Positions 1 to 11,682 of a stretch of DNA of 11,682 nucleotides are shown piece by piece. Position numbers and translations under genes: made by a program. The stretch is from a virus, in the UHGV virus genome UHGV-0087143; one strand, 5' to 3'. How positions within the stretch are numbered: position 1 is the first letter of the stretch; each line of letters begins with the position of its first letter. The notes below the pieces were generated by a model, which was not told where the DNA came from, did not search any database, and worked only from the letters and a program-made list of their open reading frames with translations.

Positions 1-219
1 CTGATCCTGATCGTCTTGCCTTATTGAATATGATTGCTATTTGCATTTAAAATCGAGACCTGGTTTTTCTACTGAAATGATTATGACTTCAATGACCCTT
101 GAATGAAGTCTATTCGGTTTTCTTTAGATGTTCGCCTCACATAATCTTCAAGTGATGTTCCTTACATCTCCCTAGAGCGTTAAGATAGTTAACTGATTGA
201 GTTTTCAGGGTATGAAAGG

Positions 220-885
220 ATGAGCAACACTACCGACATCTTAAGCACGATAGCTGATATCACTATGGCTGGTACTGCTGTATGGGCTGCATTCAAAGCT
301 AATGATTGGTTTAAAACCAAGCGTCTTGAGAGTGCTGAAAACTTCTATAAAGAAGTACACAATCTCCATAAACGTTACTATTCAGCTATCCAATACGTTG
401 AGGATTCAAGAAGAATATTTGATAGTCAGTATGGGTTGCATTCGCCAATATCTGAACCTAAAGACAAGTCATTGCAATGGGGGGTTAAATCGAACTCTTA
501 CAAAATCATCGCTGAACTAGATTATCTGGCATCGTCACTACAAATGATGGATGCAATGGGTAACAAACTTAGCCCTAAATCGGCTTCACTGGTTAATGAT
601 ATGATGGAAGCACATGGACGATTCTGTAATGATGTGATGAACTTCAATGACTCAGTTTGGAAGGTTATAAGGGCAGGTATAACTGAAGAGAACATCCCAC
701 ATACGCGAGGCTATGTGAACGGCGATTACATGACTATCCTTACCAGTATGGATGAACCTGTAAGAATATCTTTTAGGTTAAAAGAAATCAGTTTTAAAGA
801 TTTTTACCTGCATGAAACTACTATGCAGTCAGTAATAACGAGGCTGAAATCGCTTATCGCCAGAACAGGTAAAAACAGGACATAA
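220..885 (+). CDS. Hypothetical protein, 221 aa, with N-terminal hydrophobic segment (ILSTIADITMAGTAVWAAF)
   Basis: Long ORF from ATG 220; weak SD-like AGGG 9 nt upstream; no domain recognised by eye. The 302-520 track ORF is nested in another frame and treated as spurious. Confidence 0.6.
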   Translation: MSNTTDILSTIADITMAGTAVWAAFKANDWFKTKRLESAENFYKEVHNLHKRYYSAIQYVEDSRRIFDSQYGLHSPISEPKDKSLQWGVKSNSYKIIAELDYLASSLQMMDAMGNKLSPKSASLVNDMMEAHGRFCNDVMNFNDSVWKVIRAGITEENIPHTRGYVNGDYMTILTSMDEPVRISFRLKEISFKDFYLHETTMQSVITRLKSLIARTGKNRT

Positions 886-897
886 ACAGGTTAGTAC

Positions 898-1015
898 CTA
901 TGCAATTTAAAGGCATTTTCCCAAGTATCTATGCAATCCTACACAGATTCTATGCAGTATCGATATAGTCTCTTTTTAGCGTAACCTATTGAAATATATA
1001 GAGAATCTATGAAGT
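898..1015. repeat. Cluster of four CTATG(C/A)A(A/G)T motifs (898-906, 929-937, 950-958, 1007-1015) plus a diverged ~22-bp direct repeat (965-986, 1011-1032)
   Basis: Read directly: cCTATGCAAT, tCTATGCAAT, tCTATGCAGT, tCTATGAAGT, all same strand; atagtctctttttagcgtaacc vs gaagtctcttttcagggtaaac. Confidence 0.5.
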
Positions 1016-1496
1016 CTCTTTTCAGGGTAAACTGTATCGTGTTAGTCGTCCCTCTCCAGACACTACATACAGTGCTATATACAGGGATATATAACGATAT
1101 ATAGTTGTTTGACCACTACCAATATTCCCTCAAAGTGACTATCAAGCTGCTTAACAGTTTCCCATGTGAAAGTTAGGAGGTGATGGTTATAGTTCCTTCG
1201 TAGTTCCTCTTAAAAAATCACTTGCAGACACCTTAATCTCTATACAGATTTCATGTAGAACACGATTAGTACGTAGAAGAGTCATTATGTTAAAAACACA
1301 CTGTGTTTATATCAGTACTGATTTATAAGGGTTTTGTGTATTGGGTGATAAGAGGCTATACAGCACCTTGAGAGCATGTCTTCTAAGTCATTGACATATA
1401 AGGTCACAGAAGTTTGTGTCTGTTACAGAGAAAACTGGACAGGACTTCACAGAACTATAAAATGTTACAGCTATTGATAGGTGAAATCTTCTTGAT

Positions 1497-1553
1497 AGAT
1501 GCTATGAAGTGTGATGAAGGCTTCTTGAGGTGGAGTTAACAGATGCTATGAAG
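1497..1553. repeat. Two perfect copies of 13-mer AGATGCTATGAAG, 44 bp apart (1497-1509, 1541-1553)
   Basis: Exact 13-bp direct repeat; shares the CTATGAAG core with the 898-1015 cluster. Confidence 0.6.
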
Positions 1554-2028
1554 AAAGTCAATAGTTGGTTATAGATATTTTAACTGCTTTTGCAAAGGGG
1601 GGTGCTATATCGTGAATCTGGGGTACTTAACAGCCATCAATCATGAGGTAGATTAGGGGTTGGTACAAGCCCAACTAACCGAATCAACTGTGTAGATATT
1701 TTTTAAGATTATCGGTGAAGGGGGAATGCAGAGGGGGTACTATGATTTTTATAAAAATTTTCAGAAGCCAAATAACCATTGTACAGATTTTATACAATCC
1801 TACCAAGCCTCATAGTTGATTCGATTAGGTGATTCAGTAATGAATTACTTCATGAAGCTAATCTCATAGAAAGCTCTGTAGCGAGTTTTAACCCCATTTT
1901 TAGGGGTAGTCTATAGGGATGTACCACCCACCTTAAAATAAAGGGGTAAAATCGCTTAGAATGCGTTACAGAGCGTCTGAGAAGCTATATTCACAGATTT
2001 TACTAAAGTCTCAGACTTCTAAGTAGTC

Positions 2029-2338
2029 TTTTTAACAGGAGGGGTTCCCCTATGGTCACATATCCCCTCTCTCGTTTAGTGGCCCTTGATAGCACCCGAT
2101 TAATAACCTAGAGAGTATGCCTGTAAAACTTCTGTATCAGGTCAACTATAAGAGGTCTGGATATTACCTTGTAAGATTCCTGGTAGTGATTATGCAGAGG
2201 GCTTGATAAGAGTGTTTAACGGGAGGAAGAGATATCTTTTTAACAGGAGGGTTCTTTCTCATGTATCACCCTCTCTTCCCGCTAAGTAAGCTACACAGAC
2301 CTAGAGAACATGCCTTCACAGCATCTATATCAGGTCAG
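2029..2338. repeat. Two diverged ~100-115-bp modules (about 2029-2145 and 2237-2338), each beginning TTTTTAACAGGAGGG
   Basis: Shared blocks in the same order: TTTTTAACAGGAGGG, CCCTCTCT(C)..TTAG, CCTAGAGA(G/A)(T/C)ATGCCT, TCT(G/A)TATCAGGTCA. Related CTCT(C)TCCCG(C/T)T(A/T)AG boxes recur at about 2727-2740 and 2910-2923. Confidence 0.6.
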
Positions 2339-2425
2339 ATTTAGAGGGTTTTGATAGAGTCTGTAAAGGTACTTGACAGGTAACTATGAAGTTGCTAGGA
2401 AGAGCTGTTTAACGGGAGGAAGAGA
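2213..2425. repeat. Perfect 20-bp direct repeat TGTTTAACGGGAGGAAGAGA (2213-2232 and 2406-2425)
   Basis: Exact match read in sequence; a related GTTTAACGGGGG lies at 3239-3250. Confidence 0.8.
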
Positions 2426-2847
2426 ACCATGAAACCGAAGGTAGGTTCTGTCTTAACAGTGAAGTCTTAAGAAATGTCTTGAGAGTTACCTAAACAAGCC
2501 TCTTAAGTAAAAGACAACACTCCAGAAAGAGTGTCTGTTTAACAAACTTCTCAAAAGCTCTTAAAAAGTCTGTTAAGAGAGGGCTATGTGAACATATCAT
2601 ACCATTTTGTCAATGCTTTTGTCTTTGACCTAAATCAATAAAATGTATCGTTTGATATGGTTTTAAGCAAGACGGCTAAAAAAATCTTTTTAGAGGGGCG
2701 CTTCGCTTGGGGTCACTATGTTCTTTCTCTCCCGTTAAGAGGGAAGTTACAGGGACATTTCAAAGCCCTGATAAGGTAAGCCCGATGATAACAGAAACAG
2801 AGGGCAAAACCACTTATCAACACTGTGAACGAATAACGTAAAGGGCT

Positions 2848-2884
2848 GGTTAAGAAGGTCGGTTAAGAAGGTCGGTTAAGAAGG
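2848..2884. repeat. Tandem array, about 2.8 copies of 13-bp unit GGTTAAGAAGGTC
   Basis: Copies at 2848-2860 and 2861-2873, partial copy 2874-2884; related TTAAGA(A/G)GG boxes at about 2464, 2570, 2735 and 2932. Confidence 0.8.
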
Positions 2885-2950
2885 GAGCTTCCCTTTCTTG
2901 GGTGTCGCTCTTCTCCCGCTTAGTGGATAGCTAAGAAGGCTTGAAGTTAT

Positions 2951-3126
2951 CTGTGAAGGTACTGGACAGTCTTATATATTGGGTGATTACAACTCGTTGA
3001 AAAATAAGTATTTTTAGAAATCACTGTTAAGGTTACAGAGTCAACTGTGAAGAGACTTGTCAGTTCTCTATATTGGGTGATTACAACTTATTGAAAAGTA
3101 AGAACTTTTAGAAATTACTGTCAGAG
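2951..3126. repeat. Two copies of a ~82-bp direct repeat (2951-3032 and 3045-3126), period 94 bp
   Basis: Identical 20-mer core TATATTGGGTGATTACAACT at 2975-2994 and 3069-3088 with ~85% identical flanks; partial third copy TATTGGGTGAT at 1339-1349; CTGTRAAGGTACTTGACAG-like heads also at 2361-2379. Confidence 0.8.
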
Positions 3127-3240
3127 AGGTGAATACTTGATAGATACAGCTTTCCGGTTCTGTCAAGCTATTTTTTAATAGATAGCACAAAATGCTAAAG
3201 ATACCCCTATACCATCTCGTACAGGGGGGGTTGAAGGAGT

Positions 3241-3429
3241 TTAACGGGGGTCTGTGTGGTTATCTGTTCTGGTCCTGTCCTTGAGGTCAAACGACCATTC
3301 ACGACCAAACAATCTGAACACGATAAACACTCTGACGATGAAATAGCGAAGTAGTAAGCCTGCAATCAGCCCAACACCTCCACCAGCCCATACATCAGGT
3401 GACCCCAGCTCAGGAGGGAGATTTACCAT
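3241..3429 (-). CDS. Small predicted membrane protein, 62 aa (one hydrophobic helix GGGVGLIAGLLLRYFIVRVFIVF, charged C-terminus)
   Basis: Track ORF on minus strand, divergent from the 3633 gene; weak SD GAAGG upstream; candidate promoter upstream. Could still be a chance ORF. Confidence 0.3.
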   Translation of the reverse strand: MVNLPPELGSPDVWAGGGVGLIAGLLLRYFIVRVFIVFRLFGREWSFDLKDRTRTDNHTDPR

Positions 3430-3514
3430 TCAATGTACCTTCTGTGTGCAATGCAAAAAAACATGTGACCATTCTCGATAGCCACGCTTCATATTTTCCC
3501 TCTCCCATAAACCC

Positions 3515-3544
3515 ATTATACCATAAATGTTAATAAATTGTTAA
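3515..3544 (-). promoter_or_regulatory. Candidate sigma70-type promoter (minus strand): TTAACA, 18-nt spacer, extended -10 TGGTATAAT
   Basis: Minus-strand -10 TATAAT is the complement of 3515-3520, TG of the extended -10 at 3522-3523, -35 TTAACA is the complement of 3539-3544. Confidence 0.4.
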
Positions 3545-3551
3545 AAAATAC

Positions 3552-3580
3552 TTGACATTAGTCTTTGAAACTGCTAGTAT
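3552..3580 (+). promoter_or_regulatory. Candidate sigma70-type promoter (plus strand): TTGACA, 17-nt spacer, TAGTAT
   Basis: TTGACA at 3552-3557 and TAGTAT at 3575-3580 with exact 17-bp spacing, ~50 nt upstream of the 3633 start codon. Confidence 0.5.
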
Positions 3581-3632
3581 TGTATATATAGTTAACAGGA
3601 AATTAACAAACACTAAGAGGGTCAGAATATGA

Positions 3633-4187
3633 ATGCAGGATTCAGAATTTAGAGCGATGCTTCAGGCATCAAGAGAACGCAACAAGCACAACTCCTACGC
3701 TTACACAGACACCCCCACCAGCTACGAAGTACCAGCCTTTTCCAAAACCGAACGTAAAAACATTGAAGCGGTCATTCGTAGCATTACGCCACGAGACAGA
3801 TTTATGCCAGTACGCAAAGAAAAAGAGAATACTTTAAAAACTTTCTTGATGAGCTTTGATTCTTACGAGCAACTACCATCAAAAATTGAAGATGTAATTA
3901 TCGGTACTTGTCGCAGTCTTGGAAGAGATAATTATCACCGGAAGGTTTTTTATTTACTGCGAAGTCTTGATGAGATTAGTTCAAGCACAGTGACGAGCCA
4001 TCTTCAAAGACAAGCAACCAGACTTAGCTACGAATTACCAAGTGATAAATATTGCGCTAACTTAGCCACTATTTGCATGAAAGTTATTGAGACAATTAAT
4101 CATCATGCGGAAGTTGGAAATATCAGCCTTACAACCAGTGAACCAGACTTTGAATTTGACGTATACGCACAAGCAGAGGAATTTTAA
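3633..4187 (+). CDS. Hypothetical protein, 184 aa, first gene of a rightward operon
   Basis: ORF with SD AAGAGG (3615-3620) upstream of ATG 3633; no domain recognised. The antisense track ORF 4062-4442 is treated as spurious. Confidence 0.65.
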   Translation: MQDSEFRAMLQASRERNKHNSYAYTDTPTSYEVPAFSKTERKNIEAVIRSITPRDRFMPVRKEKENTLKTFLMSFDSYEQLPSKIEDVIIGTCRSLGRDNYHRKVFYLLRSLDEISSSTVTSHLQRQATRLSYELPSDKYCANLATICMKVIETINHHAEVGNISLTTSEPDFEFDVYAQAEEF

Positions 4188-4188
4188 A

Positions 4189-4476
4189 ATGGAAAATAAA
4201 CACACACTAACCAGAGTTACAAAGACAGCCTTTGAAGAACTTAACCGAATCAAAAACATTACAGGTCTGCCACACTCAGCAGTGATGAAGCTTGCAATTA
4301 ACCGTGATATTAACGAACAAGATTTGCTTAATAGTCGCTTAGAGGCTGCAAGACACCATATCAGGATTAAGCAAGATGACCTTGATAGTCTGAAATCTTT
4401 AAATGCTTTTGGACTGGATTTAGCAAGGTTGCTAAGCATCAAAATTCACAAGTTAAAGTTAGAGATGGAGGTTTAA
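4189..4476 (+). CDS. Small putative DNA-binding protein, 95 aa, ribbon-helix-helix-like N-terminus plus C-terminal coiled coil
   Basis: Start chosen at ATG 4189 (GAGGA SD 8 nt upstream, directly after the upstream stop) instead of the overlapping in-frame track start 4087; N-terminal TRVTKTAFEELNRIKNITGLPHSAVMKLAI resembles a strand-helix-helix fold. Motif-level only. Confidence 0.5.
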   Translation: MENKHTLTRVTKTAFEELNRIKNITGLPHSAVMKLAINRDINEQDLLNSRLEAARHHIRIKQDDLDSLKSLNAFGLDLARLLSIKIHKLKLEMEV

Positions 4477-4862
4477 TGTATGACTTTTATAAACATCGTG
4501 ACCATTTGGTAAGATTTGACGGTAAAGTCTGGAAAGACGTAACACAAACCAATAAACCCAAGTTTACCCACCAGCAATTAGCCTCAAGATTTGATATCTG
4601 GACTGAAGCACAAAAAGATAATGGTGATTTCGAGTTTATCAGGGGTTTTGATTATGCTTACGAAGACGACCTTAAAGACGCCATTAAATTAATTGAGAAT
4701 TTCAACTCTATTAAAAATGGTGACAAGCACAAAGCCAATGGCAACAGATACGATAAAGATTTAATCATTGATGCAATCACCAAAGGACAATCACAAAGTT
4801 ATATTTCTGAGAAATACGGTTTATCACGCAGTCAATACTACAAGATTAAAGCGTCTGTGTAA
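4476..4862 (+). CDS. Putative helix-turn-helix DNA-binding protein, 128 aa
   Basis: Start ATG overlaps upstream stop (TAATG, translational coupling); C-terminal IDAITKGQSQSYISEKYGLSRSQYYKIK looks like a resolvase/sigma-region-4-type HTH. Confidence 0.6.
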   Translation: MYDFYKHRDHLVRFDGKVWKDVTQTNKPKFTHQQLASRFDIWTEAQKDNGDFEFIRGFDYAYEDDLKDAIKLIENFNSIKNGDKHKANGNRYDKDLIIDAITKGQSQSYISEKYGLSRSQYYKIKASV

Positions 4863-5000
4863 GCCTGTGAGAATGAGTGAGACTCAAAGATGAGCTACCC
4901 TATTACTAAGGTGTCTCACTCCCTCTGTAACCCGCATGGTTACTGGCCTCAGAATGGCTATTTTGGCAGATTTAAGATGTGTTTTTAGAGGATTTTAAAA

Positions 5001-5324
5001 ATGAACAATTACCCGCTACAGATTTTCGTTGATAGCGACACCGCTCTGATGATTCAGGCTTTCAGTGATTCCGGTGTATCAATTGACTTTGACAGGCTGT
5101 TAAGGCTAATGGCTAATAACTCAGAAACAATTGAAGATTTTATTCAGTCGGTGGAGTTTAACGAGCCTCGAATGATGCTACCAATTAAAGACAGCAACAT
5201 GAAAAGATTGGTTATCGAGCAAACGAACAAATACAGCGTTAGCCCTGAAAGATATCTCAAGGCAGCTATAGCAATTTTGTACGCTGACAATATTTTGGTG
5301 ACGGATTCGAAGGTGGTGCATTAA
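5001..5324 (+). CDS. Hypothetical protein, 107 aa
   Basis: ORF from ATG 5001; no domain recognised. Confidence 0.55.
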   Translation: MNNYPLQIFVDSDTALMIQAFSDSGVSIDFDRLLRLMANNSETIEDFIQSVEFNEPRMMLPIKDSNMKRLVIEQTNKYSVSPERYLKAAIAILYADNILVTDSKVVH

Positions 5325-5389
5325 TGGAATTGGTGATTATCTGTTTTGTATTGATTGGTATGATTGCAGGTGCATCTATTAAAGTATAA
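5324..5389 (+). CDS. Possible 21-aa hydrophobic peptide (MELVIICFVLIGMIAGASIKV)
   Basis: ATG overlaps stop of the 107-aa gene (TAATG); strong SD GAAGGTGG 7 nt upstream; entirely hydrophobic. Below the track length cut-off; speculative. Confidence 0.25.
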   Translation: MELVIICFVLIGMIAGASIKV

Positions 5390-5454
5390 ATGTTACCAAT
5401 CTGTTAAAAAGCTGTTGACAAATAACCTTAAGCATGACATAATTTTAATTATGG

Positions 5455-5481
5455 GAGAGTAATTCTCTCTTATATTTTTTT
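5455..5481 (+). terminator. Candidate rho-independent terminator for the 3633-5389 operon
   Basis: Stem GAGAG/CTCTC (5455-5459 / 5465-5469), loop TAATT, followed by TATATTTTTTT. Confidence 0.4.
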
Positions 5482-5659
5482 CAATAATCCGATGGATGGA
5501 TGGATATTCTGAGTTGGTGAGGTATGTTCTATACCGAACATTCTGAAAGGTGCAATGCTTTTCGCTACATGGCCTCTTATATAACCTGAGAGGTCATCTC
5601 GAAAAGTACTCTTGTTCATTCGTTTGAATCCTTCAGAAGTTTTAATTTCTTCACCTTAT

Positions 5660-5702
5660 GAATAGCCCTTTATAAGAAATTATCTAGGGCTATTCAGTTT
5701 TT
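5660..5702 (+). terminator. Candidate stem-loop/terminator: 10-bp stem GAATAGCCCT / AGGGCTATTC, 16-nt loop, then AGTTTTT
   Basis: Perfect 10-bp inverted repeat at 5660-5669 and 5686-5695; T-run only on the plus strand. Confidence 0.35.
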
Positions 5703-5776
5703 AAAAAGCATACTTGGCAAACCGCCTTTTAAGCCTCTTCTAAGTTCGAGGATGTCAGGTGTGCTTTTTAAAAACT
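5696..5776. promoter_or_regulatory. Perfect 15-bp inverted repeat pair AGTTTTTAAAAAGCA (5696-5710) / TGCTTTTTAAAAACT (5762-5776), 51 bp apart; operator-like
   Basis: Exact reverse complements; each contains the palindrome TTTTTAAAAA; ends 36 bp upstream of the 5812 start codon. Confidence 0.4.
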
Positions 5777-5811
5777 GAAACATAAATTATCTTAGAAGAG
5801 GAAAGGTATTA

Positions 5812-6516
5812 ATGGCTATCCGTGATGAAAATGAAATGATTATTGAAAGCCGACCAAGTGCACTTGATATTCACGAATTAACTTTGCGTGAATCTTTTGA
5901 TAGAGCTTGGCGGGAATCACACGAAGTAAATAAAGGTCCATATATTCCACCAGAACCACTCGAGATTCCAAGAGTTGAAATTGATTTTTCTATGAACGAA
6001 CAGTGTGAACTTGATTTGAAGTTGAAGCTACAACGCCGATATTTCCAAGCTATTAAAGACTCTCAAGAAGCAATGAGAAGTGTTTACGAGAAAATTCAGT
6101 CCAAGCTTGAAGACGAAATCGACGAAATGGCTATTTTGATGGAGCTTCAAACCAATTCTTATGCTTATTTCTCTCGACTAGACCGTGACGGTTGGGGGTA
6201 TGACCCTGTAGAGATTGGTAAAGTGATTGCAGATTTACCAGAAGGTCAAAGGGTTATTCGTACGGAAAGGGCCATCAGAGCGCCACATCGACTGTCTCTA
6301 ATTGTTGCTGATAAATCACAAGCTGAGCTTGAAGAAATTGCCAAAGAGAAACTGATGAAAGCAAGAGAAAATGAGATTAATTTGCTGAAATCAAGACTGG
6401 CTAAGCTGATTAGTGACCATCAAGCGCTGGCTAAGGAGTACCGTCAAGAGTTGGCACAGATTATCAGCTTCAATGATTTTCTGAGTGTTCCACGAGAATT
6501 TAGCAAGGCTGTTTGA
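5812..6516 (+). CDS. Hypothetical acidic protein, 234 aa, with C-terminal coiled-coil-like region
   Basis: ORF with SD GAGGAAAGG upstream of ATG 5812; no domain recognised. Confidence 0.65.
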   Translation: MAIRDENEMIIESRPSALDIHELTLRESFDRAWRESHEVNKGPYIPPEPLEIPRVEIDFSMNEQCELDLKLKLQRRYFQAIKDSQEAMRSVYEKIQSKLEDEIDEMAILMELQTNSYAYFSRLDRDGWGYDPVEIGKVIADLPEGQRVIRTERAIRAPHRLSLIVADKSQAELEEIAKEKLMKARENEINLLKSRLAKLISDHQALAKEYRQELAQIISFNDFLSVPREFSKAV

Positions 6517-6539
6517 TTATGAATTAAAAGAGGTGATTA

Positions 6540-6752
6540 ATGTTTGAAGAACGTTTAGAGACTATTCGGTCTGTTTGCGAAAGACTCCAGCTACAACCAA
6601 ATAGACAAAAGCTACGAATTAAGAATAACCGTCATTACATCACCTCACACAAACCAAAAACACGCAAGATTCCAAAGTGGTGTCTTGATAAATTACCAAG
6701 TGATTGTCAGATTGTCGGTGAAGATGGTAATTATTATCTTGTCAGACATTAA
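6540..6752 (+). CDS. Small basic protein, 70 aa (three Cys, Lys/Arg-rich centre)
   Basis: ORF with SD GAGGTG (6530-6535) before ATG 6540; function unknown. Confidence 0.5.
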   Translation: MFEERLETIRSVCERLQLQPNRQKLRIKNNRHYITSHKPKTRKIPKWCLDKLPSDCQIVGEDGNYYLVRH

Positions 6753-6802
6753 AAAAGAATTGGTTGGGTATATGAGATAGGTTCTATCGAATCTATAGTA
6801 CG

Positions 6803-6844
6803 GGGAGAGATTATCGATATTATTCGGTAGTTTCTCCCTTTTTT
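6803..6844 (+). terminator. Candidate terminator: stem GGGAGA/TCTCCC around a 24-nt loop (containing palindrome TATCGATA), followed by TTTTTT
   Basis: GGGAGA 6803-6808, TCTCCC 6833-6838, T6 at 6839-6844; loop unusually large so strength uncertain. Confidence 0.4.
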
Positions 6845-6893
6845 GTATATGAGGATAGTCTTCTATCCGAAGTCTATGAGGTGAAAAATATGA

Positions 6894-8978
6894 ATGAGCA
6901 AATTTACAGTTGATAGTTTTATTGTTGAGCTGGGCTTCAGTGAAAACGTTATTAAGGGATTGCAAAGAGTTGAAAAGGCAGCTTTGCAGTCAGCACAAAG
7001 AATTGAACGTAATTTGAATAGAGCGTTTAAGGTCGATACCAAGCAACTTGACAGCAATTTAACGGCTTCTTTAAAGTCAATGGAAGGGAAAATTAATAAG
7101 ACCTTTGACAAGATTGAGCAGCGTCTTAAAAACACTAGAGCGTTTAAGATTAAAACGGAAATTGAGGATACTTTAAAGCCACTTAGACAGCCAAGACAGC
7201 CACGAATTAGCGGCAACAGAGCAATCACAGCAGCTTATTCAGCGAATATGAGCAAGTTAAAGGGCTTTGACCCTATTTTGCAGAAATACATCAAATCTCA
7301 GTTTTACGGGCTATCTGCTAAAGCTGGGTCAATGGATAATTCAAAATTCAATGAGAAGTTAGCTCAGCTAAATGCTTCAGTCAGAGAAGCAATCACTAAA
7401 GCCAGAGGTCATACATCCACCAGCAAAAACAATCACAGTGAAAATGCTTCAAATGGTTTAGATGTATTAGCTACAAGTGCAATCAAAGCAGGTACAGCCA
7501 TTTATAGTTTTCAGACAGCCTTAGAAGCTTATAGGAAGGTTATGGAAGTTGGTCTGAAAAAAGAAGCATCACAACGAGCGGCACAATTCGTTTTAGGTGA
7601 TGAAGGTGCTAAACGAGCTACAGAATTTGTTAAGAATCTTGCTGATAGTAGTGGTGTAGACCAGATTGAAACATTAAGCAGTTTTGCTAAGTTTTCCGCT
7701 GGTGCTGGTGATATGAATGCAGACCAGAAAGAATCCTTATTTTCTAATGTGATTGGTACATCCCGACTAATGGGTTTAAGCACTGATGAGATTAACGGGA
7801 TTCTAAAAGCTTTCGAGCAGATGGCGAGCAAGGGCAAGATTCAAGCTGAAGAATTACGCGGTCAGTTAGGGGACAGAATGGCAGGTGCTTTTCAGTTATT
7901 TGCCAGAAGTCTTGGGATGACTACAGAAGAATTAGACAAGGCCATGAAGGACGGTAAGGTTCTTTCTAAAGATGTTCTTCCTAAAGTATCCGCTGAAATG
8001 GGAAGGATGATTGATAAAGCTGGTGGATGGGAAAAGATTATTAACTCTACTCAGACGCAGTTAGGCCGCCTTTCTAATTCATGGAATAATAATCTGGCCT
8101 TAATGTTCGACGGTTCACAGGAAGGTTTAACAGACTTTACAAGGTCACTGACTAATTTACTTAATTCACTAGGTGGTCAATCTAAAAATCTTGGTGAACA
8201 TTTTGGCGACTTGATGAAAAGCATGTCAAACGGTGTTGATGATTTAACCACGATTAGCTACCGAGCACAGGGATTCTTTGACAGAGTGACCCTTGCTTAC
8301 AGAGAATTAAATGACACTCAAAAAGCTGTAGCTGATGGTATCGCAAATGGCCTGTTAAGTGCATTAAAGGGGCTTGCTGGTATAGTCGCTGTAAGGTCTG
8401 GGATTGGTGCTGTAGGTGGTATCTGGAACTTAATTAGGGCTATTTCCACGCTTGGAAATGTAGCAAATACAGCAGCAGGAAGAATCAATTCACGTTCTGC
8501 TGGTAGTGTTGAAGGTGGTAAAGGAAAATTATCTGTAGCTGATGCAATTACCAAAGTAATGATTGTCGGTATGGCAACTGATGTGATTAACTCCATTGTT
8601 AAACCACTCTATGAACGCCAGATGAGTAAGTCAGATAATCCAATTGATAAAGTTGTAAGGTCAAAGGTGGAACCCACAGACCAAGCATTGACTGGTGACA
8701 TGAACTCTTTAGCTGCTGTTTTATGGGCTATGGTTCAGGGCAAATCAAAAGATGTTCCACAGTTTTCACCGGAAGCATTAAATAATCTGAAAGGTCGAGT
8801 GGAAACATTCACACAAGATTTAAAGGTTATCAAGCCGTCAGTAAATATTCAGCCTCAGACAATCAATATCACAACTCAGACGGTACTTGATGGAAAGGTT
8901 ATTGATGAAAGAACCACATCGCATATTAATCGTATGCAGGAAGATACCTTGATTAGCTCAGCTTACCCAGAGGAATAA
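6894..8978 (+). CDS. Phage tail tape measure protein-like, 694 aa
   Basis: Internal segment ...GLSTDEINGILKAFEQMASKGKIQAEELRGQLGDRMAGAFQLFARSLGMTTEELDKAMKDGKV... matches the conserved tape-measure core (ELRGQLGERLPGA-type motif); helical N-terminus and Gly/Ala-rich hydrophobic segment (GIANGLLSALKGLAGIVAVRSGIGAVGGIW) typical of tape measure proteins; SD GAGGTG (6878-6883) before ATG 6894. The four antisense track ORFs inside it are treated as spurious. Confidence 0.8.
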   Translation: MSKFTVDSFIVELGFSENVIKGLQRVEKAALQSAQRIERNLNRAFKVDTKQLDSNLTASLKSMEGKINKTFDKIEQRLKNTRAFKIKTEIEDTLKPLRQPRQPRISGNRAITAAYSANMSKLKGFDPILQKYIKSQFYGLSAKAGSMDNSKFNEKLAQLNASVREAITKARGHTSTSKNNHSENASNGLDVLATSAIKAGTAIYSFQTALEAYRKVMEVGLKKEASQRAAQFVLGDEGAKRATEFVKNLADSSGVDQIETLSSFAKFSAGAGDMNADQKESLFSNVIGTSRLMGLSTDEINGILKAFEQMASKGKIQAEELRGQLGDRMAGAFQLFARSLGMTTEELDKAMKDGKVLSKDVLPKVSAEMGRMIDKAGGWEKIINSTQTQLGRLSNSWNNNLALMFDGSQEGLTDFTRSLTNLLNSLGGQSKNLGEHFGDLMKSMSNGVDDLTTISYRAQGFFDRVTLAYRELNDTQKAVADGIANGLLSALKGLAGIVAVRSGIGAVGGIWNLIRAISTLGNVANTAAGRINSRSAGSVEGGKGKLSVADAITKVMIVGMATDVINSIVKPLYERQMSKSDNPIDKVVRSKVEPTDQALTGDMNSLAAVLWAMVQGKSKDVPQFSPEALNNLKGRVETFTQDLKVIKPSVNIQPQTINITTQTVLDGKVIDERTTSHINRMQEDTLISSAYPEE

Positions 8979-9212
8979 ACAATGTTAGAGCTACTAATAT
9001 TTATTGCCACACATGGCAACCTATTAATCTTTATCTAGTATGACGACTCAACTATGAATAGTCGAATGCTACGTGAAATCTCCTGAACAGATATACCCAC
9101 TGAAAAATAGAATTTACGTAGCTCACGCTTAACAGAGAAAATACTTATATATCAAAGGCTTGGTTAAAAATGACTGAAATACACTAAGTCTTTGAAATCA
9201 AAGGAGAATTTA

Positions 9213-9986
9213 ATGATTTACTCTAATCAGATTCGTTACAGTGGCAAAGATGGCATCTATTTCCACTTAAGAGATAATGTAGATGCCTTCTTAACTTTAT
9301 CAGCAACTGAGAACATGGAATTTGATAGCCCTATGCAGGTGACTACACAGAACATGCAATCAGGGCAAACCGTCACAGATAATGTGCAAAGAGCACCCAG
9401 AACAATCACTATTAGTGGTGTCGTTGTAGTTGGCTATGAAGGAAGCTTATTATTAACTCGTCAGGGTCAATTAGTAGAAAACTTCATCGACACCCTTGAA
9501 AGCTGGCGTGACCAGAAGCAGATTATTTCGGTCATCTGTAAAGATGGTATCAAGATTGATGACTCCATTATTACAAGTTTTAAAGCCTCTAAAGATGTTG
9601 GTATTTCAAATGGTCTAAGAATCCAGCTAACTTTTCAGGAAATTAACTTTAAAGCTGTTGTGGGGCAGACTGATATCTCGGCTGCAACTGGAAAAGCCGC
9701 GACTACGAATGATGGTGGTGTGACCAGTAAAAAGAATGCGGGTAACGTGACCACTGAACGCAATAACGCACCTATGCTGATGTGTCAGGAACTGTACAGT
9801 TACTCAGCATCTGAGCTATCTGATGAAGCGCTAAGGGTCCGTAGCAATTGCTCTAAAAATGTCACGGTGAAAGATGGTGTAAGCACCTTCACAGCCTCAG
9901 CTAATGAGCAGGCTTCAAAAGTGCTTAAGTCGGGTAATGCTTTACGGAAGTTTTCTGTGAATCCGAATAAGAAGGGCACTTATTGA
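9213..9986 (+). CDS. Hypothetical protein, 257 aa, downstream of the tape measure gene (possibly tail-associated by position only)
   Basis: Start chosen at ATG 9213 (SD AAGGAG 6 nt upstream) instead of the in-frame track start at 9192, which is a TTG codon; no domain recognised. Confidence 0.65.
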
Positions 9987-9990
9987 GACA

Positions 9991-10013
9991 TAAAAAGGGG
10001 CTTCATAGCCCCT
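9991..10013 (-). terminator. Rho-independent terminator for the recombinase gene, shared between convergent genes
   Basis: GC-rich stem AGGGGC/GCCCCT (9996-10001 / 10008-10013), 6-nt loop; on the minus strand the stem is followed by a U-run (complement of A-run 9992-9996); lies between the 9986 and 10019 stop codons. Confidence 0.6.
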
Positions 10014-10018
10014 GAAAA

Positions 10019-11539
10019 TTACAGTTGATAAGCGTCAATATCCAGTAGCTCTTTATCAGCAATTTCAAAGATTGGTGACCCATCATTTAGCGGTAACGGG
10101 TTTGTAGGTATGGTGATTTCAGTGTCGTTCTGTAGCGTTACAGTTACCGAATCCTTACCCAATGTAAGCCCTTTTAGATGTTTGGACAAAATCAACTGAC
10201 ACTCGACACGACCCGCTTTAGTTGTCAGGTCAATATCTTTAAGCTGGGGTAGTTCCTTATCAGTGAGTGAAGCCTTACGCCTCATGTTATCAATAGTAGT
10301 CTGTAGTTCTGTGCGCTTCTGGTTAAGTCCCTTCACCTGTGCTTTCAACTCTGTAATGTCATCCATTTCAAGAAGTAGGGCGGTAGCTTTCTTGATTCTG
10401 GCTGTGACAATTTCAACCTCATGCTGTAGAGATGCAATCTTCCCCTCTGCTTCTCCATCATTCCCCACGTCAATCATCCCCAGAAAATTATCAATCATCC
10501 ATCGGTCAAACGGTTTACGCTTCAACGGTGGAACATCACAGCGACCGTCTAAGTGGTTATTGCACCTGTAGACCCCTGCATACTTATTCTTGGTTCCGGT
10601 AGGATGGACACTAGCCCCACACTGACACCGGAATAATCCCTTGAAGATGTTAATCGTTAATGGGTTATCACTTGCAGGTGTGCGGCCTTTACGATTCTTG
10701 TCGAGAATCTCTTGAGCTTTATTGAACGTTGCAGCATCTATAGCGGCTTCGTAGTAGTTCGGTATAGCGGGGCGGTCATTACGCTGTGATGCTGGTAACG
10801 TGCCTATTGTTGTCTCCGACCTTAAGATGGTGCGTACAGAATGGACGCTAAACCCATTAGCATCTTTACGGCGACTAAACGACTTTATACCGTTGCTTTG
10901 AAGGTGACGGGCGATGTTATGCAGACTTTCACCACTTAGCAGCAGCTTGAAAATCAGTCTTACAGTCTCAGCGTGTTCATTGAGTTTGAGAGTATCGGGG
11001 TCAATCCATCCGGGAACCATCTTTGTTAAACGTTGTTTACCAGCAAGGGCAAGTTTTGCACGTTGTTTCCACTTCTCGCTAACACGGAAAGACTTCTGCT
11101 TACTCTCCTGATGCGCTAGGTAGCTTTTAACCCGCTGAATGATTGAGATTCCTAAATCATCGGATAGAGCATCCCTTGTGTAGATTAGCCCATCCTGTAG
11201 AGTGTGAATCTCGATACCATGAGCAATAATGCGATTCATCAAGGCTTCTGTTTCAAGATGCTCTAATCGGCCTATACGGTCGATACTCTCAACTAGCAGA
11301 ATTGTACCTCCTGGAAACTCCCCAGCCTCAATACGGGCTAACATGTCACCAAACTGACCAGTAAGGTGTTTACCTTTGTAACCGGATAGACCCTCATCAC
11401 TGAAAGACGCTACTACTTGAGCATCGCTATTCTTCTTCAACCATTGTTTGAACAGGTCGTTTTGTCGTCTGGTTGAATCAGCACCTTCAGCACCTTGTGT
11501 GGCTGATGAGAATCTCAAGTATGTTATTACGGTTCTCAC
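10019..11539 (-). CDS. int: Large serine recombinase (serine integrase), 506 aa
   Basis: N-terminal resolvase-type catalytic domain with the serine nucleophile motif (YLRFSSATQ) and downstream LLVESIDRIGR; central recombinase region; Cys-rich zinc-ribbon-like segment (CQCGAS...YRCNNHLDGRCD); C-terminal coiled-coil-like region. GTG start with SD GGGAG 9 nt upstream. Antisense track ORFs 10263-10571 and 10914-11111 treated as spurious. Confidence 0.9.
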   Translation of the reverse strand: MRTVITYLRFSSATQGAEGADSTRRQNDLFKQWLKKNSDAQVVASFSDEGLSGYKGKHLTGQFGDMLARIEAGEFPGGTILLVESIDRIGRLEHLETEALMNRIIAHGIEIHTLQDGLIYTRDALSDDLGISIIQRVKSYLAHQESKQKSFRVSEKWKQRAKLALAGKQRLTKMVPGWIDPDTLKLNEHAETVRLIFKLLLSGESLHNIARHLQSNGIKSFSRRKDANGFSVHSVRTILRSETTIGTLPASQRNDRPAIPNYYEAAIDAATFNKAQEILDKNRKGRTPASDNPLTINIFKGLFRCQCGASVHPTGTKNKYAGVYRCNNHLDGRCDVPPLKRKPFDRWMIDNFLGMIDVGNDGEAEGKIASLQHEVEIVTARIKKATALLLEMDDITELKAQVKGLNQKRTELQTTIDNMRRKASLTDKELPQLKDIDLTTKAGRVECQLILSKHLKGLTLGKDSVTVTLQNDTEITIPTNPLPLNDGSPIFEIADKELLDIDAYQL

Positions 11540-11611
11540 GGTGATAAACTCCCATGCAATTGATTATCATTTAAAGATGAACTTATAAACGTTATGGCTA
11601 ATGCTACAATG

Positions 11612-11640
11612 CCGAATAGCTACAATACAATGACCCTTGA
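11612..11640. other. Candidate recombinase attachment-site junction (right end), partner of 90-117
   Basis: CCGAATAG, 8-nt spacer, CAATGACCCTTGA, ~75 bp upstream of the recombinase start; sequence beyond 11640 turns GC-rich (CCTCGCCGCTTCCCCTGGCCGACG). Confidence 0.3.
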
Positions 11641-11682
11641 TTTACCTCGCCGCTTCCCCTGGCCGACGTTACTTTCGGTCTG

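What the first reader, a model, noticed from the sequence alone, without database searches (positions are those of the whole stretch)
4189..4862. Translationally coupled RHH-like and HTH-like gene pair
Two small putative DNA-binding proteins are encoded back to back with overlapping stop and start (TAATG at 4474-4478), directly after the promoter-proximal 184-aa gene. Such pairs commonly act as repressor/antirepressor, as a toxin-antitoxin-like regulator, or as a recombination directionality factor for a serine integrase. None of these roles can be assigned from sequence.
Basis: partly seen in the sequence, partly recalled or inferred. Interest (0 to 1): 0.45.

Follow-up and report, generated by a model that had tools for sequence, protein, structure and literature searches.

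The report
Conserved RHH–HTH regulator pair in island
Two small overlapping genes for DNA-binding proteins are real and conserved as a pair; they sit in the early operon of an E. coli chromosomal island that looks like an undescribed phage satellite, and the first is the best candidate for the protein that binds repeats found at the island's promoters.

Summary
ORF A (4189-4476, 95 aa) and ORF B (4476-4862, 128 aa) overlap in TAATG, each has its own Shine-Dalgarno sequence, and both evolve under purifying selection.

A is a CopG-like ribbon-helix-helix (RHH) protein. It probably has two RHH units in one chain, as in TraY and DndE. B has an unassigned N-terminal domain and a resolvase/invertase-type HTH.

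Both families occur only in one mosaic island family of Escherichia and Citrobacter. These islands have large serine integrases, at least four insertion sites, and tape-measure and Dit genes related to Felix-O1-like phages. A-B adjacency is ancestral: it persists where A falls to 27-30% identity and B to about 50%. B is dispensable, being sometimes replaced, split by an HNH gene, or frameshifted.

TGTTA-N6-TGTTAA occurs three times in the window (0.02 expected), only at promoters P1 and P2. It recurs at those positions in 11 of 14 sister-island loci. Only A is present in every motif-bearing island. The likeliest reading is that A is the island's promoter regulator and B a co-expressed accessory DNA-binding protein.

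An invariant 21-nt element always follows B. The excision-factor and toxin-antitoxin readings have no positive support. The pair is ordinary in kind; the context is more interesting.

The parts
4189..4476 (+). Gene A, 95 aa. CopG-like ribbon-helix-helix protein, probably two RHH units in one chain: strand 5-10, helices 12-25 and 29-37; strand 57-61, helices 62-70 and 78-93.
   Evidence: ORF and SD. hhalign of N-half against CopG: P=1.4e-5. N-half against C-half scores 17.9-18.8, above all 100 column shuffles. Sub-threshold Pfam DndE hit in 12 of 17 members. dN/dS 0.22-0.53. AF2 model is poor, pLDDT 46.6.
4476..4862 (+). Gene B, 128 aa. N-terminal alpha/beta domain (residues 1-78) of unknown family, disordered linker (80-91), and C-terminal resolvase/invertase-type HTH (94-127) preceded by a G-N-R-Y arm.
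4474..4478 (+). TAATG stop/start overlap of A and B. B's own SD (GGAGG) lies at 4467-4471.
   Evidence: Read directly from the sequence. A 1-nt or 4-nt overlap also occurs in L003, L005, L008, L009, L013, L015 and L020.
3633..4187 (+). 184-aa gene, first gene of the rightward early operon. No family assigned.
   Evidence: Replaced in clade-II islands by a 322-324 aa protein, which in L015 has a weak HTH_36 hit.
3552..3580 (+). Promoter-like site P1 (TTGACA, 17 nt, TAGTAT, with TG), upstream of the 184-aa/A/B operon.
   Evidence: Consensus scan, 10 of 12 matches. Conserved in L001-L004.
3515..3544 (-). Leftward promoter-like site (TTAACA, 18 nt, TATAAT). Its -35 hexamer is one of the TGTTAA repeats. 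It points at a conserved 62-aa membrane-protein ORF (3429 to 3241).
   Evidence: Consensus scan, 11 of 12 matches. ORF conserved in Citrobacter.
3528..3544 (+). Candidate operator O1: TGTTAATAAATTGTTAA. Two TGTTAA units 11 bp apart, ending 7 bp before the P1 -35.
   Evidence: Pattern found 3 times against 0.02 expected. Same position in 11 sister loci.
3592..3608 (-). Candidate operator O2: the same repeat pair in inverted orientation, just downstream of the P1 -10, so that O1 and O2 bracket the core promoter.
5391..5407 (+). Candidate operator O3: TGTTACCAATCTGTTAA, ending 7 bp before the -35 of P2 (5415-5443). P2 precedes the 234-aa/70-aa/TMP/Dit genes.
   Evidence: (repeat D3).
4918..4938 (+). 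Invariant 21-nt element ACTCCCTCTGTAACCCGCATG, physically linked to gene B. It is preceded by a 9-bp stem (4884-4892 with 4912-4920) that shows compensatory changes.
   Evidence: Occurs once after every B-type gene in 10 of the 15 loci then fetched, and again in L017 and L020. Absent from B-less islands and from the phage locus. Stem covariation at 3 pairs.
5001..5324 (+). 107-aa gene, next gene after the B module. Followed by a 21-aa hydrophobic mini-ORF (5324-5389) with another TAATG overlap.
   Evidence: The left boundary of sequence shared with B-less islands is at 4991.

Best explanation
A and B are the second and third genes of the rightward early operon (P1, then the 184-aa gene, A, B) of an ~11.4-kb island. 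The island is integrated by a large serine recombinase between yciI and tonB.

A is a small ribbon-helix-helix protein, probably with the two-RHH-in-one-chain architecture of TraY and DndE. That architecture would let a monomer read a non-palindromic site.

Inference: A binds the 11-bp-spaced direct repeats TGTTA(A)-N5/6-TGTTAA. These bracket the core of P1, coincide with the -35 of the divergent leftward promoter, and abut the -35 of P2, the promoter of the tail-gene operon. A would thereby autoregulate its own operon and gate the late operon, most likely as a repressor, because both promoters are near-consensus.

B is made from the same mRNA, with its start overlapping A's stop. It is an accessory sequence-specific DNA-binding protein with a resolvase-type HTH on a novel N-terminal domain. 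It is ancestral to the island family but dispensable. Its most plausible target is the invariant 21-nt element that always lies just downstream of its gene.

Shown: gene reality, overlap, fold assignments (moderate for A, good for B's HTH), conservation and mosaic distribution of the pair, and the statistical and positional specificity of the repeats.

Inferred: who binds what, and the sign of regulation.
For: Fold of A:
- hhalign to CopG, P=1.4e-5 to 1.2e-4, covering strand, helix and helix in register.
- Weak RHH-family hits: DndE in 12 of 17 members, plus single members hitting VAPB_antitox, RHH_3 and Omega_Repress.
- An internal repeat is supported above all shuffles.
- DndE and TraY are documented tandem-RHH monomers (PMC10853773).

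Fold of B.

The pair is conserved. Every B-type gene is preceded by an A-family gene in islands with four different integrases and insertion sites.

Operator:
- The 17-mer pattern occurs 3 times against 0.02 expected, only at P1 (twice, inverted) and P2.
- The 16-mer occurs only at these positions in 11 of the 14 sister-island loci then fetched.
- In L013 and L015 the repeats fill the spacer and -10 of the promoter directly upstream of A.

Distribution across islands: islands without B (L001, L002) and islands without the 184-aa gene (L013-L015) keep the motif, and only A is common to all of them.

The most conserved polar residues of A lie in the two predicted strands: H5, T6, T8, R9 and R59, I60.

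L011, whose A has altered strands (HTNTK; VQI), lacks the motif. At the same distance from its -35 it has TATAAG-N5-TATATA instead.
Against: - No binding data exist.
- The AF2 model of A is unreliable (pLDDT 46.6), and no RHH family reaches its Pfam threshold.
- The internal-repeat signal is modest (P~1e-3).
- The repeats lie in AT-rich DNA upstream of the -35, where UP elements or a host or helper-phage factor could equally act.
- L005 has a clade-II A but has lost the upstream motif.
- The motif stays constant while A diverges to 30% identity, so the co-variation evidence rests on one lineage (L011) in AT-rich sequence.
- For B there is no evidence of what it binds. Its N-terminal domain has no informative match. 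B-less islands appear intact.
Confidence: 0.45

Rival explanations
1. A and B act together as a DNA-processing accessory module rather than a transcription switch. A would be a TraY-like architectural tandem-RHH protein. B would be a site-specific HTH protein that marks the island's DNA at the invariant 21-nt element next to its gene, for replication, packaging into helper-phage capsids, or recombination.
For: TraY and DndE, the known tandem-RHH proteins, work in DNA processing rather than as simple repressors. B is always linked to an invariant cis element that is far more conserved than B itself. B's recognition helix (S-x-x-Q-Y-Y-x-I-K) is conserved. The alternative occupants of the slot include HNH endonucleases; from general knowledge, such enzymes accompany terminases in some cos phages. 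A and B co-diverge at the deep clade level.
Confidence: 0.2
2. One or both proteins are the recombination directionality factor (excision factor) for the island's large serine integrase.
For: They are small proteins in an element that has a serine integrase and no recognised excisionase. From general knowledge, RDFs of serine integrases are diverse in sequence and hard to recognise.
Against: A and B alleles are shuffled relative to integrases. L013 and L015 share 95% and 86% identical A and B but have integrases 27% identical. Among integrases 84-96% identical, A ranges from 30% to 96%. Known serine-integrase RDFs act by binding the integrase, not DNA. In the Vibrio satellite PLE the RDF is supplied by the helper phage (both from general knowledge). 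B is absent or frameshifted in many islands. Caveat: cross-acting RDFs on divergent integrases are known (phiC31/phiBT1 gp3, from memory), so allele shuffling is not decisive.
Confidence: 0.08
3. B is a selfish or decaying passenger, a relic related to homing endonucleases, that merely occupies the hypervariable slot after A and contributes nothing to the island. Only A is functional.
For: The slot after A also holds HNH endonuclease genes, and an unrelated 59-71 aa gene replaces B in some islands. Frameshifted B alleles exist. The weak Foldseek hits of the whole B model include NUMOD4 and HNH homing endonucleases with C-terminal HTH.
Against: B is under purifying selection (dN/dS 0.03-0.28). 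It is retained with A across lineages down to about 50% identity. It is present in 128 of 5426 complete E. coli genomes. No nuclease motif was found, and a GIY-YIG comparison was negative.
Confidence: 0.12
4. A and B form a type II toxin-antitoxin-like pair, with A as an RHH antitoxin and B as the toxin.
For: RHH gene first, stop/start overlap, autoregulatory-looking operator in L013 and L015, orphan A genes without B, and inactivated B alleles.
Confidence: 0.05

Closest known systems
CopG/Arc/MetJ-type ribbon-helix-helix transcriptional repressors (e.g. CopG of pMV158)
   Same: A's N-terminal 38 residues align to the whole CopG RHH unit, including the G-L-S/P turn before helix 2. It is a small protein encoded next to its candidate operator. 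Repeats one helical turn apart on one DNA face are typical of RHH operators (general knowledge).
   Different: A is about twice the size of CopG and seems to carry a second, divergent RHH unit. The candidate site is a non-palindromic direct repeat. No RHH Pfam model reaches threshold.
Tandem-RHH monomers: F-plasmid TraY and DndE
   Different: No relaxase or oriT context, and no DndD/ABC-ATPase partner. A is 95 aa against ~110-130 aa. It scores below Pfam's cut-off (15.4 against 25 bits). The internal duplication is only moderately supported.
C-terminal DNA-binding domain of small serine recombinases (gamma-delta/Tn3 resolvase, Hin, Bin3; Pfam HTH_7)
   Different: B has no serine-recombinase catalytic domain, and its N-terminal 78 residues match nothing informative. 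The Pfam HTH_7 and HTH_28 scores are below threshold.
PLE of Vibrio cholerae, a satellite of the virulent myophage ICP1 (context of the pair)
   Same: A chromosomal island of ~11-18 kb integrated by a large serine recombinase. It is full of ORFan genes and shows signs of exchange with a virulent myophage: the Dit-like gene is 95% identical in DNA to Felixounavirus genes.
   Different: No sequence homology to PLE genes was found or tested. This island carries its own tape-measure and Dit genes. Induction, replication and transfer have not been shown.

Membership tests
Ribbon-helix-helix (MetJ/Arc/CopG) superfamily: protein A | A strand-helix-helix unit detectable by profile comparison with a solved RHH protein | tested here: met
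   hhalign of A's N-half against CopG: P=1.4e-5, probability 80%, 37 columns in register. The 40 shuffled controls score at most 14.3 against 26.6. With the broader alignment P=1.2e-4.
Ribbon-helix-helix (MetJ/Arc/CopG) superfamily: protein A | A confident 3D model or structure showing the paired beta-ribbon | tested here: inconclusive
Ribbon-helix-helix (MetJ/Arc/CopG) superfamily: protein A | Score above the curated threshold of an RHH Pfam family | tested here: not met
   Best hit is DndE at 15.4 bits against a cut-off of 25. RHH_3, Omega_Repress and VAPB_antitox appear only at E of 0.1 or more.
Tandem-RHH architecture (TraY/DndE type): protein A | Two RHH units in one polypeptide | tested here: inconclusive
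   The N-half aligns to the C-half (residues 8-37 with 58-86). Scores of 17.9 and 18.8 exceed all 100 column shuffles (maxima 15.5 and 14.9), P about 1e-3. The C-half alone does not match CopG.
DndE family | Operonic pairing with a DndD/CxC ABC ATPase and the Dnd modification genes | tested here: not met
   No such genes occur in the window or in any of the annotated sister-island loci.
TraY family | Conjugative transfer context (oriT, relaxase, tra operon) | tested here: not met
   No relaxase or transfer genes. The island is chromosomal and integrated by a serine recombinase.
Resolvase/invertase-type HTH (Pfam HTH_7): protein B, C-terminus | Three-helix HTH with a preceding basic/glycine arm, structurally matching the resolvase DNA-binding domain | tested here: met
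Resolvase/invertase-type HTH (Pfam HTH_7): protein B, C-terminus | Score above Pfam's gathering threshold | tested here: not met
   HTH_7 scores 14.6 bits against 23.8. HTH_28 scores 18 bits against 25.
Small serine recombinase | N-terminal Resolvase catalytic domain with the active-site serine | tested here: not met
Type II toxin-antitoxin system | A recognisable toxin domain in the second gene | tested here: not met
Type II toxin-antitoxin system | Toxicity of B that is neutralised by A | not testable with these tools
   Needs expression experiments.
Recombination directionality factor of a large serine integrase | Co-inheritance with the cognate integrase | tested here: not met
   A and B alleles are shuffled relative to integrase types (identity matrices).
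Recombination directionality factor of a large serine integrase | Stimulates attL x attR recombination by the integrase | not testable with these tools
   Needs a recombination assay.
GIY-YIG or HNH homing endonuclease: protein B, N-domain | Catalytic-domain motifs or a profile match | tested here: not met
No Pfam hit. Only weak whole-chain Foldseek resemblance to HTH-bearing homing endonucleases.
Phage satellite (PLE-like): context | Integrase-bearing island of ~10-20 kb with genes exchanged with a helper phage; helper-dependent induction and transfer | tested here: inconclusive
   Size, the integrase and Felixounavirus-related TMP and Dit genes are shown. Induction, replication and packaging cannot be tested here. 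No publication describing the island was found.

The most novel reading that the evidence does not exclude
The pair is the control and hijack module of a previously undescribed, common family of E. coli/Citrobacter phage satellites. These islands are integrated by large serine integrases and carry their own tape-measure and Dit genes taken from virulent Felix-O1-like myophages. A, a rare single-chain double-RHH protein, would be the master switch acting at TGTTAA repeats on both the early and tail-gene promoters. B together with its invariant 21-nt site would be a new type of DNA-marking module (packaging, replication or recombination specificity) that is interchangeable with HNH-containing modules.
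Probability: 0.2. Interest if true: 0.75.

Novelty: new member of a known kind. Interest (0 to 1): 0.42.

Why it matters
Taken alone, the pair is an ordinary small RHH + HTH DNA-binding module of a mobile element, with two lineage-restricted protein families.

It matters mainly as the likely regulatory entry point to an island family that:
- may be present in up to ~9% of complete E. coli genomes, a figure that counts short partial matches (only 117 genomes hold most of the probe);
- carries tail genes shared with virulent Felix-O1-like phages;
- was not found described in the searched literature.

If A controls both promoters through the TGTTAA repeats, it gives a simple handle (one protein, three sites) for testing how such an island stays silent and how it is switched on. 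The B-plus-21-nt-element module is a concrete, testable candidate for a cis/trans DNA-recognition pair.

Tried and rejected
- 'B is simply variable cargo unrelated to A.' This was my first reading from L001, L002 and L004. I rejected it after finding A-B adjacency in divergent islands at three other insertion sites.
- Profile searches of A against PDB sequences gave only CopG at E=0.68, which was lost with broader alignments.
- An exhaustive HMMER search with the A profile found only 10 representative clusters, all in the same family. A profile search for B found only Escherichia proteins.
- The B-region DNA (window 3400-5400) and the B protein have no match in 50,697 phage records.
- PADLOC, NCBIfam and PHROGs gave nothing for A or B.
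- Rfam found no family and ARAGORN found no tRNA.
- The intergenic region after B does not fold significantly better than shuffles (z=-1.25).
- The afdb50 fold library was unavailable.
- Eight literature searches found no description of the island.

Full report
**Observation**

The coordinates are exact.
- The 184-aa gene ends with TAA at 4185-4187.
- Gene A starts at ATG 4189, with GAGG at 4177-4180, and ends with TAA at 4474-4476.
- Gene B starts at ATG 4476, giving TAATG at 4474-4478, with its own GGAGG at 4467-4471. It stops at 4860-4862.

Both are real genes.
- A has 27 related clusters and B has 25, all from Escherichia or Citrobacter.
- An exhaustive HMMER scan of 1.84 billion representatives with the A profile found only 10 representatives, so the family is very narrow.
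- Where synonymous sites are not saturated, dN/dS against sister alleles is 0.22-0.53 for A and 0.03-0.28 for B.

**Context**

The window is an ~11.4-kb island inserted between yciI and tonB of E. coli. Its parts, in order, are:
- a 221-aa gene;
- 2.7 kb without any ORF longer than 62 aa;
- a divergent promoter region;
- the operon of the 184-aa gene, A, B and the 107-aa gene;
- a second strong promoter-like site, P2;
- the 234-aa and 70-aa genes;
- a tape-measure protein;
- a Dit-like protein;
- a 506-aa large serine recombinase on the other strand.

The Dit-like gene is 95% identical in DNA to Felixounavirus phages over 9237-9746. Its protein is 78% identical to wV8 gp74. The tape-measure protein is 33% identical to wV8 gp73, with a much more similar N-terminus. 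gp73 and gp74 are adjacent in the phage.

Related islands occur at three or more other chromosomal sites, with integrases only 27-39% identical to each other. Sequences related to the 234-aa/70-aa segment are found in 474 of 5426 complete E. coli genomes. Only 117 of these hold most of the probe, and many of the rest are short partial matches.

I found no paper describing this island. Structurally it looks like a phage satellite of the PLE kind. That is an inference.

**Protein A**

No curated family reaches threshold. The best hit is DndE, at E=0.024 and 15.4 bits against a cut-off of 25.

The AF2 model is poor (pLDDT 46.6). Its helices (12-25, 29-37, 62-70, 78-93) nonetheless fit two strand-helix-helix units.

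Profile-profile comparison aligns residues 1-38 with the entire RHH unit of CopG. The result is P=1.4e-5, probability 80%, score 26.6, against at most 14.3 for 40 shuffled controls.

The N-half aligns with the C-half in the expected register (T8-R9-V... with I58-R59-I...). The scores of 17.9 and 18.8 exceed all 100 column-shuffled controls.

Twelve of 17 diverse family members hit DndE weakly. Single members hit RHH_3, Omega_Repress and VAPB_antitox.

A published analysis shows that all DndE proteins, like F-plasmid TraY, contain two tandem RHH domains and act as monomers (PMC10853773).

I therefore read A as a CopG-like RHH protein, probably of the tandem TraY/DndE architecture. It is not a member of either family, because the genomic context and the score thresholds are not met.

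**Protein B**

The AF2 model (pLDDT 74) has three parts: an N-terminal beta-beta-beta-alpha-beta-alpha domain (1-78), a disordered linker (80-91), and a three-helix C-terminal domain (94-127).

The N-domain has no informative match. A GIY-YIG idea was tested and rejected. One unnamed 127-aa viral protein matches the full length (Foldseek E=2.6e-6), and weak hits include HTH-bearing homing endonucleases.

**Is the pair a unit?**

At first B looked like cargo.
- L001 and L002 have A followed by an unrelated 59-71 aa gene plus an HNH endonuclease.
- L004 has an HNH gene inserted between A and B.
- L006 has a 274-bp gap between A and B.
- Some B alleles are frameshifted.

However, every B-type gene examined is preceded by an A-family gene, usually with a 1-nt or 4-nt overlap. 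This includes lineages where A is only 27-33% identical and B 37-54% identical to the window's alleles or to one another, and islands at other insertion sites.

So the pairing is ancestral, and the two genes co-diverge at the deep clade level. There has been recombination between them: comparing the window with L008, A is 55% identical and B 92%. B is dispensable.

**Candidate operator**

The pattern TGTTA-N6-TGTTAA occurs three times in the window, against 0.02 expected. No shuffle out of 200 reached three. The sites are:
- 3528-3544 (+), ending 7 bp before the P1 -35 and overlapping the -35 of the leftward promoter;
- 3592-3608 (-), just after the P1 -10;
- 5391-5407 (+), ending 7 bp before the P2 -35.

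Among the 14 sister-island loci then fetched, the 16-mer occurs in 11 and only at these positions. It is absent from the phage wV8 locus.

In L013 and L015, where A is promoter-proximal, the two repeats fill the spacer and -10 of that promoter: TTGACA-ATATGTTAAATAGATGT-TAAGAT.

The motif persists in islands lacking B (L001, L002) and in islands lacking the 184-aa gene (L013-L015). A is the only early protein common to all of them.

The most conserved polar residues of A are in its predicted strands.

L011, whose A has different strand residues, lacks the motif. It has TATAAG-N5-TATATA at the same distance from its -35. This is weak evidence because the DNA there is AT-rich.

A non-palindromic unit in direct repeat is what an asymmetric, single-chain double-RHH reader would be expected to bind. 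That is an inference.

**Rival readings**

The RDF reading is disfavoured for three reasons. A/B alleles are shuffled relative to integrases. RDFs of serine integrases act on the integrase protein (general knowledge). B is dispensable. It is not excluded.

The toxin-antitoxin reading has no positive evidence.

A DNA-processing role for A+B remains a serious rival, because of the B-linked element. The sequence ACTCCCTCTGTAACCCGCATG (4918-4938) occurs exactly once after every B-type gene. It is absent from B-less islands and is invariant where B itself is 37-50% identical. It is preceded by a stem with three compensatory pairs.

**Verdict**

The pair is a conserved but separable module of an island-specific early operon. 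A is the best candidate for the island's promoter regulator. B is an accessory resolvase-type HTH protein whose target is unknown.

In kind this is ordinary: new members of known DNA-binding classes. The surrounding element is the more interesting object.

Noticed in passing
window 1-11682 (island about 150-11540): The whole window is an ~11.4-kb island between yciI and tonB with a 506-aa large serine recombinase. Related mosaic islands sit at three or more other sites (dinB/yafK, msyB/lpxL-like, rut/wrbA) with integrases only 27-39% identical. Core genes match in up to 474 of 5426 complete E. coli genomes, though many of those matches are short and partial. No publication was found. It looks like an undescribed PLE-like phage satellite.
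   Followed up: partly
window 6894-8978 and 9192-9986: The island's tape-measure and Dit-like proteins are homologues of two adjacent Felixounavirus (wV8) tail genes, gp73 and gp74. Dit is 78% identical in protein and 95% in DNA over 9237-9746. TMP is 33% identical, with a much more similar N-terminus. This implies recent DNA exchange with virulent Felix-O1-like phages.
   Followed up: partly
window 4918-4938 (with stem 4884-4892 / 4912-4920): An invariant 21-nt element, ACTCCCTCTGTAACCCGCATG, lies ~55-80 nt downstream of every B-type gene. It is absent from B-less islands and far more conserved than the flanking genes. It is preceded by a 9-bp stem with compensatory changes. Its function is unknown: it could be B's binding site, an RNA leader of the 107-aa gene, or a packaging or recombination site.
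   Followed up: partly
window 886-3632: A 2.7-kb stretch has no ORF longer than 62 aa and is rich in internal direct repeats (83-nt, 58-nt, 20-nt and 17-nt families) and in TGTTAA hexamers (10 of the window's 23). Its segments are conserved in sister islands as spacers between variable cargo genes (small serine recombinase, Dam methylase, AP2/HNH). Here the cargo positions appear empty. No Rfam family matches.
   Followed up: partly
window 5415-5482: The near-consensus promoter-like site P2 (TTGACA, 17 nt, CATAAT, with TG) is followed immediately by a hairpin and T-run (5450-5482). The transcript would therefore start inside a terminator-like stem-loop. The hairpin sequence differs between islands but stays palindromic. 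It could be an attenuator or antitermination site, a 5' stabiliser, or a palindromic operator.
   Followed up: partly
window 5693-5719 / 5753-5779: A 21-bp inverted repeat with a ~33-nt spacer lies just upstream of the 234-aa gene's RBS. It is conserved in seven islands, with compensatory changes at 9 of 21 pairs. It is present in islands without B.
   Followed up: partly
window 5324-5389: A 21-aa hydrophobic mini-ORF (MELVIICFVLIGMIAGASIKV) overlaps the stop of the 107-aa gene in another TAATG. Other island lineages carry a different but equally hydrophobic mini-ORF at the same place.
   Followed up: no
window 3241-3429 (-): A 62-aa ORF with a predicted transmembrane stretch is transcribed leftward from the divergent promoter, whose -35 is an operator half-site. 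It is conserved in Citrobacter (L020) and annotated in L001 and L003.
   Followed up: no
L001 7482-7945; L002 7279-7778; L004 8174-8446; L011 4560-4760: The slot after A is a hot spot. It holds HNH endonuclease genes and an unrelated 59-71 aa protein (MLC..KMIRYISDLL...) as alternatives or additions to B. Some B variants share the MLC-x-F-x-YH N-terminus of that small protein, which suggests recombination junctions at the start codon.
   Followed up: partly
L011 and L012 (Logan contigs of 12.9 and 9.6 kb): A more distant relative has a permuted layout: the integrase lies in the middle and the TMP and Dit genes are on the opposite strand. Its A-type gene has altered predicted strand residues, and the TGTTAA repeats are absent.
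   Followed up: no
window 5812-6516 compared with sister loci: In the eight loci compared, the identity pattern of the 234-aa gene mirrors that of gene A: (window, L003), (L006, L008), (L005, L013, L015). The integrase, TMP and 107-aa genes do not follow this pattern. This may be a functional link or a sampling artefact. RefSeq annotates some homologues as 'transposase'.
   Followed up: no
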